From: Octopus vulgaris
Lineage: Eukaryota
Reading direction: 5' to 3'
Assembly: GCA_951406725.2 (NCBI GenBank)
Contig: OX597819.1
Span: 93,434,001-93,498,000, forward strand
Length of the DNA stretch: 64,000 nucleotides
Shown piece by piece: positions 3,153-58,935 of this stretch. The translations under genes were made by a program, and so were the position numbers. The notes beneath the pieces are model-generated. The model searched no databases, was not told the DNA's origin, and worked only from the letters and a program-made list of their open reading frames with translations. Position 1 is the stretch's first letter. Every line of letters starts with the position of its first letter.

Positions 3153-3190
3153 AACAATTAAGTAACACGGATGTGATGTCAAGGTATTAG

Positions 3191-3277
3191 TGCATTACGG
3201 CCGTTTCAAGCGGCTCCATTTAATCGAACAATACAAGCATTATATCAATTTGAAATGCACCGCCATCTTCGGATGCA
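3191..3277 (-). ncRNA. Type I hammerhead ribozyme-like motif (core variant CCGAAGA, U4C)
   Basis: Minus strand: UGCAU-CCGAAGA-U-[GGCGGU...GCCGCU long stem II]-U-GAA-ACGGCCGU-A-AUGCA. Stem I UGCAU/AUGCA, palindromic stem III, GUA cleavage triplet. Confidence 0.75.
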
Positions 3278-3580
3278 TAAGGCCATATAGGTTTTCGACA
3301 TACTGGATACTCCATTATAATTTTTAGTAAACATTTCATCAGAACTAGAGAATGAAAGAATTACATGTTGCTATTATTATGGCAGAATCAACTTTGGGAG
3401 AAAAATACCCCAACTATAATTTGGAGTGGCGGAAGAGAATAACAATGGGGGTCATTAAATGGTAATATAGCTACAATTTTCATCTGTCTCCTTATCACCA
3501 TCCAAAGATCTAATGCAGCCAGTATTCTCCGTCTACTAAGTATATATATATGAGAGAGAACAAAGTGTACGTGCGCCGCT

Positions 3581-8365: not shown

Positions 8366-8677
8366 ACCTACACACACATGCACACAAATACTTCTGAGTT
8401 CAATTATCACTGAGATCGATAAAATAAGTACCAGTTGAGCAACTGGGGTCGATGTAATCGACTTACTTACTTCCCTGAATTTACTGGACTTATGCTAAAT
8501 TTTGAACCGAATATACAAATGTAATATACACATTGTGTGTGTGTGTGTTTTATAATATATTATCAATATCAGGAAATCAATATTAGAAAATTATAATATT
8601 TATATATGTAAATATGTATAAGTATAAATATATAATGTATATGACAGTTTAAAAGTTTTGAATTAAGTTTTTAAAGC

Positions 8678-8767
8678 ATCTTACGATTGTTTCGCAGAAG
8701 TGCTGTCCCTATAATGGAATCCTATATTGATAAGCATTTATAGACAACTCTTCTGCTCTTCAGAGAT
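8678..8767 (-). ncRNA. Type I hammerhead ribozyme, canonical core
   Basis: Minus strand: AUCU-CUGAAGA-GCAGAAG...CUUCUGC-GAA-ACAAUCGU-A-AGAU. Perfect CUGANGA and GAAA cores, 7-bp perfect stem II extended by GUUGUC/GACAGC, stem I AUCU/AGAU, short near-palindromic stem III, GUA cleavage site (A = nt 8682). Confidence 0.85.
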
Positions 8768-9218
8768 ATAATTTGAATTTTGTATAATATATCGAATGGT
8801 AGTTGTTGTTTTTTTTAAATATGAAGTTATACTATAAAATGGTATTTGTTTGAAATATAAATTAAAAATTGCTGCTTTTGATTTTGGTAAGTACACTTTA
8901 GTATGAGAGTCTTTAAATCCATATATACTTCCTTGGTTAGTCTTCTGTAATAATCCATAATAGTTATGCGTAAAATCCATTATATTGTCTTGTATTCCAA
9001 ATATAGTTCATAGACTTAGATAATATAGAATAATGGAATCCTACATTGATAAGCATTTATAGATAACTCTTCTGCTCTTCAGTAATATCAAATGTGAAAT
9101 TTGTATAATTTAATGAATGGTAGTTTTTGTTTTTTTTAATTATGAAGTAATATGGGAAAATGAGGTTTGATTTAAATTTTAAATTACTGCTTTTGATTTT
9201 GGTAAGTAAACTAGTATG
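8711..9218 (-). repeat. Partial tandem duplication (8711-8905 and 9030-9218, period 319 bp) carrying the HHR; Penelope-like/retrozyme-type relic
   Basis: ataatggaatcctaYattgataagcatttatagaYaactcttctgctcttcag and tgcttttgattttggtaagta occur in both copies; the second copy keeps the CUGAAGA core at 9076-9082 but lacks the GAAA half. Confidence 0.75.
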
Positions 9219-9236
9219 TATGTATATACATACATA

Positions 9237-10690
9237 CTAGCAGAGATACCCGGCGTTACTTGGATTAAAATGGCATAGTTTGTATATAATATATTACAGT
9301 TATGTTGAAATAGGTGATATAGGAAAGTGCAGCATTGACAGCAAAACATTTGTGGAGTAAATGATGGGCTAATTCGACTAAGCAACATGCTATGCCTTTG
9401 TCTGGAGTACCTCAGACAGGCCCTAACCTGTCATGGAAAATGGGTGTGGGCTGTTATGTGATTTTTGAACGCACCGAAAAGCTGTCAGTGGATATATTCT
9501 CTTTTGCAGCAGTCGGCGCTGTGTCTAACACGACTCATCATCTGAAATTTTAACACCTCCTTGGAGGAACTGTGGTTGTTTCTTTTTCAGTAATAAGGAA
9601 CCAATGAGGTGATAGACTTGCCCTTGAACTTTGACGTCGGCACAAATTCATGTTTACCTATCTTCTCATATGAACCAAACGATGTCATTTCATATGTAGA
9701 GTTGTATTGTCTGATAGAGTTCAGAAAATCCTTTGACTGGATGGAAGTGCCTTCTAGAAGATCCATAAGAGGTTGAGAAGGAGCCGGTAGTGCTGGCAAT
9801 GTTACCTGACCGCCTGAGCAACACATACCATTTGTTTCATTTGAAAATTTTAAAGCTCTACAGAAAAGACAATTTGTGTTTAGCACACCAATTTGTACGG
9901 AGTTAATATTTTTATAAGAATGGGAAGGATCATATCTGAAAACAGCTTCAGGAGTTGTGAAGAACGAATTTGTACGTAATCTGTTTCTGAGAGCTATTCT
10001 ATTAGGCCTCTGTCTAATCATTAAAACATTGATTAATGATCCAGCATTAAATGCTGCAACATGCATTTGCTGATGTTTAGAAAATCTCATCTAGCTTCTC
10101 TCTTCAGGCTCTCGCCTTCGGTTTTATACTTGTTTCTGGAAAGATTACGTCTTTTCTTTGGTGACATTTTTTTTTTTCAATATTGTAAACAAATAATTAT
10201 GAACATAGAAAGAAATTATACATTTATCCCTATTTTTGTAAGTAACTGTATCCATAAAAATTTATTTGAAGAGAAGAGAAATTGAAAGAAGAGAAAGCGA
10301 AAAGGAGAAAGAAAATTAAAGATGTATGTACGTCTATAGGAAATGGACGCGTGTGTGTGTGTATACCTGCGTGCGTGCGCGTATGTGAGAGAGAAAGAGT
10401 GAGTGAGGGTGTGTGTCATGATGACTGATGTCTTTTAAGGTAAACACACATGTAGAAAATGGACGTCGTTGTATAAAATGTTTACGATAGTTGATTTGCG
10501 GAAAAGATTACAATGTTAAATTTTTGAAATGCAACTACGTGAATGGAAATTAAGTTTAATTTGTAGCCGAAATAGTACTAACTCTTTTTATACCCCATAC
10601 CTCAAAATCTGTAACTCGGTCTGAGGCCGTATGGGAAAATGAATGGAGGTAATAATGTCGCCATTACTAGTGACTGGTTGTTTGATTTTT
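9237..10690 (-). mobile_element. Helitron, internally deleted non-autonomous relic
   Basis: 3' end on minus strand: decayed hairpin TCCAAGTAACGCCGGG then TATCTCTGCTAG|T; contains a RepHel N-terminal fragment; 5' boundary uncertain (abuts a mariner fragment). Confidence 0.85.
9590..10167 (-). pseudogene. Helitron Rep/helicase N-terminal fragment (frameshifted)
   Basis: MSPKKRRNLSR start; FRYDPS...IG..NTNCLFCRALKFSNETNGMCCSGGQVTLP...PLMDLL...SKDFLNSIRQYNS...MTSFG; after a frameshift KVQGQVYHLIGSLL. These match the Cys-rich N-terminal motifs of RepHel proteins. Confidence 0.88.
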
Positions 10691-39548: not shown

Positions 39549-39966
39549 GGCGTAGGAGTGGCTATGTGGTAAGTAGCTTGCTAACCAACCACATGGTTCC
39601 GGGTTCAGTCCCACTGCGTGGCATCTTGGGCAAGTGTCTTCTGCTATAGCCCCGGGCCGACCAATGCCTTGTGAGTGGATTTGGTAGACGGAAACTGAAA
39701 GAAGCCTGTCGTATATATGTATATATATATATAAGTGTGTGTGTATATGTTTGTGTGTCTGTGTTTATCCCCCTAACATTGCTTGACAACCGATGCTGGT
39801 GTGTTTACGTCCCCGTCACTTAGCGGTTCGGCAAAAGAGACCGATAGAATAAGTACTGGGCCTACAAAGAATAAGTCCTGGGGTCGATTTGCTCGACTAA
39901 AGGCGGTGCTCCAGCATAGCCACAGTCAAATGACTGAAACAAGTAAAAGAGAGTAAAAGAAAAGAG
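39549..39966 (+). mobile_element. SINE family A, full length, least diverged copy
   Basis: ggcgtaggagtggctatgtggtaag...ggttccgggttcagtcccactgcgtggc...; CpGs retained; tail (gtaaaaga)n. Confidence 0.93.
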
Positions 39967-40142
39967 AGGTAAGCATGATCCAGGAATCTGAGTGTAGGAA
40001 GTTAGTAAGCTTCAAACATTTAGGCAGCTACTATATGACTAAAAATGTATAATTTACAAGAGAATATATTTATTAACATACACTTCTTCCCATATCAAAA
40101 TTAAAAGGAATTTCAATAGGCATGCATATATATATATATATA

Positions 40143-40376
40143 AGTTCAGTAAAAATTTAGATTCAGATGAATATGGTACTTAACTTGAAGGTACCAGAAT
40201 TTAGTATGGTATTATCTACACAATTTAAAATAAGGTGATTATAATCAAAATAAGCAACAAGGATATCCAGAGGTAATGCAGTACGATCGTTTCATGCAAC
40301 TCTATTTAATTGAACAATGCAAACATTACATCAATTTAAAATGTAGAGCAATCTTCAACTGCACAAAAATATAGAA

Positions 40377-40382
<6 letters not shown>
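40143..40382 (-). mobile_element. Short non-autonomous element between two (TA)n tracts, carrying an HHR (related to 3153-3290)
   Basis: Shares atttaatYgaacaatRcaaRcattaYatcaattt with 3218-3251. Confidence 0.6.
40277..40363 (-). ncRNA. Type I hammerhead ribozyme-like motif (core variant UUGAAGA, C3U)
   Basis: UGCAG-UUGAAGA-U-[UGCUCUA...UAGAGUUGCA long stem II]-U-GAA-ACGAUCGU-A-CUGCA; stem I 5 bp, fully palindromic stem III, GUA site. Confidence 0.8.
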
Positions 40383-40426
<44 letters not shown>

Positions 40427-57999: not shown

Positions 58000-58935
58000 T
58001 AAATTGATAAGGTTTTTCCAGGATGTGGACAGTACTTGTCAGCATAATCTTTCGGATTTCTCTGAGACAGGATTCTCTTGGGATATTATCTAGATGTTTC
58101 TGACATCCCCTTTTTTTTATCATACCTGGTGCACCTACAATAACAGGAATAGTTCTCACTTTAAGATGCCACATCTTTTGTATTTCAATTTCCAGGTCCT
58201 AATATTTATTTAATTTGTCAAATTCCTTACAGATATATTTTTGTTTAGTGGGAACACTTACATCTGTTAGTCTCAAAGTGTTTTCTTCCTTGTCTTTAAT
58301 CACTATGTCTGGTCACTTAGCCTGGATTGTTCTGTCAGTGTTGACTGGAAAATCCCAGAGGATAGTGACATTTTTACCTTCAACAACTGGCTCAGGATGA
58401 TGTTCATACCAGTAAGCAGGAGTGCCGATTTTGTAGTGTTTACATATTTTCCAATGTAAATACTGTCCTACACAATATACATGGTGGTTTTTGTATTCGT
58501 TTGGTGTCAGCACAGGACATCCCGAGATGAGATGGTCTGTTGTTTCATCAAATGTATTGCTGAATCTGCATTTAAGGTCAGAACTGTTTTGAAGAACGTT
58601 AGCTTGGTAGCTATTAGTAAGCAAGCTTTGATCTTGTGCTACCAATGTGAAACCTTCAGTCTCTGCTTTCAGTCCAAAGCTTCTCAGCCACTGATGGGTT
58701 GTTGTTTGGTCTACATCAGCATTTCGGCTTTGAAGCATATACTGCCCATGCAAAGGCTTCTGGCTCCAACATTCCTCAATTTGTTTCTACCTATTCTTTT
58801 TTGCAGTCTGCTTGATCAATCTTGCTTGTTTGGTGGCAGTAGAATCAGGTTCATCATCTAATTCAGGGTTATTGCCAAGTTCCCTTTCGAATTTGCAAGC
58901 TTCTTTGACAATAGAATGTGATTTTTTGCTGCTTA
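58000..58935 (-). pseudogene. R4/Dong-clade non-LTR retrotransposon 3' region (zinc knuckle + restriction-like endonuclease)
   Basis: MHGQY...WLR..GLKAETEGF...AQDQSLLT..Y...CRF....ETTDHLISGCP.L...EY...WYEHHPEPVVE...TILWDFPV.TDRTI.A*PDIVIKDK...DV..P...KY*DLEIEIQKMW.LK...IPVIVGA.G; stops and frameshifts. Confidence 0.9.

What the first reader, a model, noticed from the sequence alone, without database searches (positions are those of the whole stretch)
3191..3277. HHR copy whose three stems covary with the homologous copy at 40277-40363
Seen: the two copies, 37 kb apart, share the stem II distal sequence but differ in paired positions while keeping pairing. Stem I UGCAU/AUGCA vs UGCAG/CUGCA; stem III palindrome ACGGCCGU vs ACGAUCGU (both perfect palindromes); stem II base GGCGGU/GCCGCU vs UGCUCUA/UAGAGUUGCA. 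Both have a U.U pair closing stem II and a GUA site. Inference: selection on RNA structure in the source elements, including the dimer-enabling palindrome. This copy has U4C in the core and may be dead.
Basis: partly seen in the sequence, partly recalled or inferred. Interest (0 to 1): 0.8.

Follow-up and report, generated by a model that had tools for sequence, protein, structure and literature searches.

The report
Octopus-type Penelope retroelement long-arm hammerheads
Both motifs are real hammerhead-ribozyme sequences at the tail ends of two broken Penelope-like jumping-gene copies, among about 30,000 such motifs in this genome, and the way their palindromes vary suggests they likely cut RNA only when two copies pair; this is a known kind of sequence, here with an unusually long second arm.

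Summary
In detail: both 87-nt motifs lie on the minus strand, with the stems, palindromes and GUA site described. Each ends a 5'-truncated Hydra-clade Penelope-like retroelement (PLE) inserted in (TA)n. Intact relatives read hammerhead - RT/GIY-YIG ORF - hammerhead. An exact core pattern matches 20,482 places with a 48-62 nt helix II (control 255) and 10,273 with 17-47 nt (control 568). Across 37 sequence clusters, stem I, helix II and the palindrome covary in positions the search left free. The innermost palindrome pair, which cannot form within one motif, is Watson-Crick in 29 of 37 (shuffle mean 10.2). The G-U-compatible variant outnumbers its A-C mirror 1,869 to 289, favouring an RNA dimer. 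One correction: U4C is not private damage. It is the family state (33 of 45 copies) and is also fixed in an unrelated young family with an intact ORF. The copy is dead as a transposon because it is truncated. PLE hammerheads, including Hydra-clade and octopus ones, are published, and the scan found this kind before on other DNA. New here are the long helix II, the scale and repeated U4C. Cleavage was not tested.

The parts
3191..3277 (-). Type I hammerhead motif, family A: stem I 3277-3273 with 3195-3191; core CCGAAGA 3272-3266 (U4C); helix II 3265-3208; GAAA 3207-3204; predicted cleavage between 3196 and 3195
   Evidence: Sequence, descriptor scan, pair counts
3197..3204 (-). 8-nt self-complementary stem III ACGGCCGU (predicted dimer helix)
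   Evidence: Duplex -14.1 kcal/mol against +2.4 for the monomer hairpin; 28 of 45 family-A copies keep CGGCCG
3154..3543 (-). 5'-truncated 3' end of a Hydra-clade Penelope-like element, family A (3' UTR, hammerhead, about 37-nt tail)
   Evidence: 80-86% identity to family-A copies over 3543 to about 3150; family colinear with RT and endonuclease in L134 and L107/L108
2855..3153 (.). (TA)n-rich microsatellite directly after the element's tail (insertion target)
   Evidence: Tandem Repeats Finder
40277..40363 (-). Type I hammerhead motif, family B: core UUGAAGA (C3U, a minority state), palindrome ACGAUCGU at 40290-40283, predicted cleavage between 40282 and 40281
40126..40387 (-). Very short 3' end of a family-B Penelope-like element with the long tail; its truncated 5' side abuts (TA)n at 40383-40416
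   Evidence: 93-94% identity to L043 and L046; TRF

Best explanation
The two motifs are type I hammerhead sequences at the 3' ends of two truncated Hydra-clade Penelope-like retroelements, and in the source elements they likely cut the element's RNA as a pair joined through the palindrome. Shown: the element is a long ORF with RT and GIY-YIG-type motifs, then a 3' UTR, the hammerhead and a tail. In partial-tandem insertions one motif lies just upstream of the ORF and one downstream, 2.9-4.7 kb apart. Inferred: in a transcript holding two copies, the 8-nt palindromes pair with each other and complete stem III of both cores (a double hammerhead). Each then cleaves after GUA, releasing a unit-length RNA from a read-through transcript, possibly with help from the element's protein. 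A lone truncated copy, like the two in this window, would form only a 2-bp stem III and be nearly silent. The long helix II is a conserved imperfect hairpin whose job is unknown; a protein-binding or folding role is the likeliest guess.
For: Element identity: RT, endonuclease, 3' UTR and part of a family-A motif lie colinear on one strand in L134. A family-B 3' end is joined inverted to an RT fragment in L131. Intact relatives: L162 (motif 7042, 981-aa ORF, motif 2364, plus an inverted copy) and L291 (motif 4467, 778-aa ORF, motif 7330). Hydra traits: DKT and CxCX5C, (TA)n targets, and RT segments that resemble by eye the Hydra proteins in PMC8557442's supplement. The distance from GUA to (TA)n is bimodal in families A, B, D and G (about 37-39 or 114-140 nt in A/B; about 37 or 149-155 in D). 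That fits the two RT start sites reported for a Poseidon PLE (PMC11167929, passages). RNA structure: stem I pairs 1-3 are Watson-Crick in 35, 31 and 29 of 37 clusters (shuffle means 13.4, 11.0, 10.7; 0 of 20,000 shuffles reach them), and the four off-register controls are null. Dimer: the innermost palindrome pair is WC in 29 of 37 with all four pair types. Of 96 sampled motifs, 67 are perfect palindromes and 89 pair when G-U is allowed. CGATTG occurs 1,869 times and its mirror CAATCG 289 times. Dimer-type function of PLE motifs is published (PMC4209133, parts 1-2 of 4 read).
Against: No cleavage was tested. In a Poseidon PLE, the hammerhead needed protein, was dispensable for insertion in vitro, and no RNA-seq reads began or ended at its site (PMC11167929). 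Two-pair stem III motifs with a tetraloop are described as similar to invertebrate hammerheads, most of which cleave efficiently in retrozymes (PMC7229834, passages), so a dimer may not be required. The 37 clusters are single-linkage groups at 82% and are related, so the shuffle counts are not probabilities. The GATT excess is partly inherited from expanded families (family D among them). No full-length colinear family-B copy was found. The intact ORFs hit no relevant Pfam model; one matches a Pfam-positive PLE only weakly (25%, E 6e-8).
Confidence: 0.8

Rival explanations
1. The motif cleaves as a monomer. The long helix II supplies a distant tertiary contact with stem I or the tail that makes up for the weak stem III, and the palindrome is secondary.
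For: Helix II is a conserved, covarying hairpin with internal loops (helix 37-44/48-55 is 95.8% paired in a 27-copy alignment). U4C is tolerated in two lineages, and tertiary contacts are proposed to offset core variants (PMC3088659, passage).
Against: A monomer gives no reason for the loop's innermost bases to stay complementary (29 of 37 clusters). Helix II length runs from 17 to 62 nt across families, which argues against a fixed contact.
Confidence: 0.1
2. The fold is kept as a protein-binding or RT-positioning structure (a dimerisation handle for the RNP), and cleavage is slow, protein-assisted or incidental.
For: In the one PLE reconstituted in vitro, catalytic mutants did not affect insertion and cleavage needed the protein (PMC11167929). 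U4C lowers activity in vitro (PMC3088659), yet is fixed in a recently mobile family.
Against: Exact canonical cores are far commoner than U4C ones: 20,482 against 1,338 matches, with controls of 255 and 563. That suggests the catalytic core is normally under selection; this is an inference, because other core variants were not counted.
Confidence: 0.08
3. The palindrome is a DNA-level site (for example for the dimeric endonuclease), and the apparent RNA covariation reflects descent.
For: The site is a perfect DNA palindrome in 67 of 96 sampled motifs. The PAc protein is predicted to be a dimer.
Against: A DNA palindrome should decay symmetrically, but the G-U-compatible form is 6.5 times commoner than its mirror and is the majority state in the young family D. 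Eight different central palindromes occur, with four more (CTAG, CGCG, TGCA, TATA) in the listing. They sit exactly between GAAA and the UH site.
Confidence: 0.02

Closest known systems
Hammerheads of Hydra-clade Penelope-like elements, including Hydra-1_Obim from Octopus bimaculoides (Craig et al. 2021, PMC8557442; text passages from the bioRxiv version, supplement File S1 sheet 3 and File S2 read)
   Same: Type I motif on the sense strand near the 3' end; frequent U-U or extra base at the foot of helix II; C-terminal endonuclease; DKT; CxCX5C linker; (TA)n target.
   Different: The 26 published Hydra rows have a loop 2 of 3-10 nt and at most about 26 nt between the core halves; here that span is 58 nt, and 48-62 nt in the main class. 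Most published rows have a 1-3 nt loop in a 3-4 bp stem III; here it is a perfect 8-nt palindrome. None of the 26 has U4C. Units here reach 4.7 kb, against the 'generally <3 kb' given.
Minimal and near-minimal hammerheads of metazoan PLEs (Cervera and De la Pena 2014, PMC4209133; parts 1-2 of 4 and supplement passages read)
   Same: Located in pseudo-LTRs; short stem I (here 3-4 covarying pairs); extra base after position 9; palindromic stem III proposed to work as a dimer; thousands of solo and inverted copies; families full of covariation.
   Different: Their helix II is 6-8 bp with short loops, and the counts given were 130 to about 9,000 per genome; molluscan rows seen (Lottia, Crassostrea) have short helices. 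Here helix II is a long multi-stem hairpin and there are about 30,000 exact-core motifs.
Amphibian satellite-2 and axolotl retrozyme hammerheads (PMC7229834, passages)
   Same: 1-2 bp stem III capped by a palindromic or 4-nt loop, a U-U at the base of helix II in one class, and higher activity as dimers.
   Different: Those lie in 330-350 bp non-coding tandem repeats with loop 1/loop 2 contacts; these lie in autonomous 3-5 kb coding elements.

Membership tests
Type I hammerhead ribozyme | Core CUGANGA ... GAAA ... UH in order | tested here: met
   Canonical in 24 of 31 family-B copies; copy A and its family carry U4C; window copy B carries C3U
Type I hammerhead ribozyme | Three helices around the core, supported by covariation | tested here: met
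   stem I pairs 1-4, helix II pairs 1-4 and both palindrome pairs exceed shuffles; off-register controls do not
Type I hammerhead ribozyme | Match to an Rfam hammerhead model | tested here: not met
   No hit at gathering in the window and no hammerhead family at E<=10 in five loci; probably because of the long helix II (inference)
Type I hammerhead ribozyme | Site-specific self-cleavage | not testable with these tools
   Only assembled contigs were available; they cannot show RNA ends
EN+ Penelope-like element | Single ORF with RT followed by a GIY-YIG-type endonuclease | tested here: met
   Broken RT and endonuclease colinear with family A; intact 981-, 842- and 778-aa relatives. Called from motifs and similarity; no Pfam hit
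EN+ Penelope-like element | Partial tandem (pseudo-LTR), inverted 5'-truncated partner, optional tail | tested here: met
   L162 and L291; inverted partners in L005, L008, L010, L012, L043, L047; bimodal tails
Hydra clade of PLEs | CxCX5C linker | tested here: met
   Present in family-A-related fragments L117 and L127 and in families D and E; absent in L112 and in the U4C family L291
Hydra clade of PLEs | DKT in place of DKG; no CxxC inside the endonuclease | tested here: met
   DKT upstream of the RT core and no CX2-5CxxC match in the intact relatives. No intact family-A or family-B N-terminus was found, so DKT is shown only in relatives with 60-66% RT identity
Hydra clade of PLEs | Insertion into (TA)n | tested here: met
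Hydra clade of PLEs | Placement in the Hydra clade on an RT tree | not tested
   Reference proteins were seen only in a paper supplement and compared by eye
Non-LTR retrozyme | Short (150-450 bp) head-to-tail non-coding repeats each holding a motif | tested here: not met
   The window copies are solo truncated 3' ends; same-strand repeats in intact loci are 2.9-4.7 kb apart with an ORF between

The most novel reading that the evidence does not exclude
Octopus-type Hydra retroelements carry a distinct long-arm, dimer-only hammerhead. The palindrome acts as a two-copy switch, so that only full tandem transcripts are cut while about 30,000 solo copies leave host RNA intact. The palindrome walks between sequences through G-U intermediates (GATC, GATT, AATT within one family), and the long helix II is a functional module that lets a U4C core work, which evolved at least twice.
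Probability: 0.25. Interest if true: 0.65.

Novelty: new variant of a known kind. Interest (0 to 1): 0.4.

Why it matters
What PLE hammerheads do in vivo is an open question. This genome offers dozens of families, young intact copies and a natural series of palindromes, helix II lengths (17-62 nt) and core variants. That makes the dimer model directly testable and gives quantitative comparative support for it. The motifs are missed by Rfam. Seven literature searches (and the text look-up) found no description of this long-arm class in an octopus; subscription papers and Repbase were not searchable. The kind of object is well known, so the overall interest is moderate.

Tried and rejected
1) Antisense coding overlap. 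The reverse strand of both motifs reads in one frame as a similar peptide with synonymous-looking differences. Rejected: all three antisense frames are interrupted by stops nearby, family C does not keep the peptide (read by eye), and the real ORF lies upstream on the motif's own strand.
2) The Neptune-like 781-aa PLE found by the GIY-YIG search is not the source; no motif of this family was found in six loci of it.
3) Covariance model R1 was built on a structure that was off by one column and was not used; the corrected structure was counted.
4) Rfam gave nothing. Pfam gave no relevant hit on Hydra-type fragments or intact ORFs.
5) Expression: no RNA holder listed. Four guessed-RNA contig sets were laid on family D, but contigs cannot show ends, strand or level, so nothing is concluded.
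6) Palindromes as family-specific keys: weak, since unrelated families share GATC or ATAT.
7) Single-sequence folding of the window motifs is not better than shuffles.
8) Supplement file 1 of PMC4209133 could not be searched, and supplements of the 2026 retrozyme preprint were not seen; either could hold long-helix examples.

Full report
Observation. Each is 87 nt: a 5-bp stem I, the core (CCGAAGA in copy A, UUGAAGA in copy B), a 58-nt helix II, GAAA, a 6-nt insert that makes an 8-nt palindrome with its flanking A and U, and a GUA site. Between the two copies there are about three true double changes. Neither motif folds better than shuffles alone, and Rfam finds nothing, so the pair by itself is thin evidence.

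Both are repeat copies. DNA searches of the own genome (2.8 Gb, microsatellite-rich; octopus-like by my recall) gave 2,112 and 1,553 first-look candidates, of which 40 each were scored. Copies share a fixed downstream end followed by (TA)n, are truncated at varying distances upstream, and often have an inverted partner 100-1,000 bp away. In the window, copy A spans about 3543-3154 and copy B about 40387-40126. Family A is older (mean 89.5% identity to its column majority, 45 copies) than family B (96.9%, 31 copies; only rows of full length without indels were counted, 76 of the 90).

The source element. Walking upstream led through a long AT-rich 3' UTR to broken endonuclease and RT frames on the motif's own strand. 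L134 holds RT, endonuclease, UTR and part of a family-A motif in order. For family B the link is indirect: an inverted 3' end joined to an RT fragment in L131. An RT fragment as query found 6,193 candidates, many in long open frames. Of 20 fetched, several are complete: L162 reads motif, 981-aa ORF, motif, 4.7 kb apart, with an inverted copy upstream. These proteins have DKT, a CxCX5C linker and no CX2-5CxxC, the traits given for the Hydra clade (bioRxiv version of PMC8557442, passages), and they resemble by eye the Hydra proteins in that paper's supplement. No tree was built and Pfam gave no relevant hit. Distances from GUA to (TA)n fall into two groups in families A, B, D and G, as expected from the two RT start sites reported for a Poseidon PLE (PMC11167929, passages).

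Scale. The pattern CTGANGA-N48-62-GAAAC-NNNN-GTA matches 20,482 places against 255 for the reversed control. With N17-47 it matches 10,273 against 568; a few places match both. With U4C it matches 1,338 against 563.

Covariation. I fetched the places of the first 99 of the 100 matches listed (all on contig C1), which gave 96 distinct motif instances in 37 clusters. Of the 96, 67 have a perfect central palindrome and 89 pair if G-U is allowed. Taking one majority per cluster, in positions the pattern left free, stem I pairs 1-4 are Watson-Crick in 35, 31, 29 and 18 of 37 (shuffle means 13.4, 11.0, 10.7, 9.6), while pairs 5-7 are at chance. Helix II pairs 1-4 are WC in 30, 30, 22 and 25. The two palindrome pairs are WC in 32 and 29 (means 21.2 and 10.2). 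Four off-register controls are null. In a 27-copy alignment of families A-C, 91.4% of cells pair, 12 of 27 pairs change on both sides, and sliding the partners drops pairing to 30-47%; that structure was drawn from these same sequences. The clusters are related, so none of these counts is a probability.

Dimer. The innermost palindrome pair would close a loop of zero bases in one motif, so its covariation points to pairing with a second copy. The duplex is predicted at -14.1 and -10.0 kcal/mol for the window copies, against +2.4 for the monomer hairpin. A DNA palindrome should decay symmetrically, yet CGATTG (G-U compatible) occurs 1,869 times and its mirror CAATCG (A-C) 289 times. One family shows GATC, GATT and AATT side by side. 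Caveats: the excess is partly inherited from expanded families, and strand-biased change such as A-to-I editing before reverse transcription (recalled, untested) could add to it.

U4C. 33 of 45 family-A copies have CC at core positions 3-4 (4 CT, 1 TC, 7 unscorable). A second family with U4C has copies 98-99% identical across six of seven fetched loci (L292 shared no long match with the others) and an unbroken 778-aa ORF between two motifs in L291. The family-A-linked RT fragment is 60% identical to canonical-core family D and 40% to this family, so U4C likely arose twice. A natural U4C viroid variant has low in-vitro activity but supports infection (PMC3088659, passage). U4C therefore does not mark this copy as broken.

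Mechanism. Shown: element anatomy, motif position, covariation and asymmetry. Inferred: pairing of two motifs in a tandem transcript, cleavage after GUA, release of unit-length RNA, and near-silence of solo copies. Against: in the one PLE tested biochemically the hammerhead was protein-assisted and dispensable for insertion in vitro, with no RNA ends seen at its site. Expression and cleavage could not be assessed here.

Known and new. Hammerheads in PLE ends with dimer-type palindromes are published (PMC4209133; PMC3088659 figure S8 legend), and so are those of Hydra elements, including one from an octopus. The 26 published Hydra rows have at most about 26 nt between the core halves and none has U4C; a long loop 2 appears in that table only in two plant PLEs marked as deviant, and Chlamys-3 deviates otherwise. 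A 2026 octopus repeat annotation mentions Penelope-like elements but not ribozymes (PMC13282606, term search). A 2026 retrozyme preprint has no octopus mention in its main text. Earlier notes of this scan report the same kind in other genomes; none were on record for this genome. Verdict: a real, well-supported variant of a known kind; interest 0.4.

Noticed in passing
window 8677-8768 (-): A third hammerhead of another family: canonical core, 5-bp stem I, 7-bp helix II base, 64-nt helix II, insert CAATCG (A-C type, probably decayed). Folds at z -2.7. A truncated second copy starts near 9083.
   Followed up: partly
window 9590-10090 (-): 167-aa open frame that resembles, from recall, the region upstream of a Helitron Rep/helicase.
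   Followed up: no
window 58316-58786 (-): 157-aa frame resembling, from recall, the C-terminal zinc-knuckle part of an RTE-type LINE.
   Followed up: no
L101:930-6172 and L102-L106: Young Neptune-like PLE (CxxxxCxxC linker) with an upstream frame of up to 479 aa overlapping a 781-aa RT/GIY-YIG frame and 456-bp direct repeats. My hammerhead scan found no motif in it.
   Followed up: partly
G000:C1:2714563-2714626 and similar rows: A family whose insert is CCGAGG, not a palindrome; in a dimer it would give tandem G-A pairs, recalled as a stable RNA motif.
   Followed up: no
L290-L296: The young U4C family lacks the CxCX5C linker and has a short 3' UTR (2.9-kb unit), unlike families A, D and E.
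   Followed up: partly
window 39762-39990: Abundant SINE-like repeat just beyond copy B, recalled as the common octopus SINE type; not tested.
   Followed up: no
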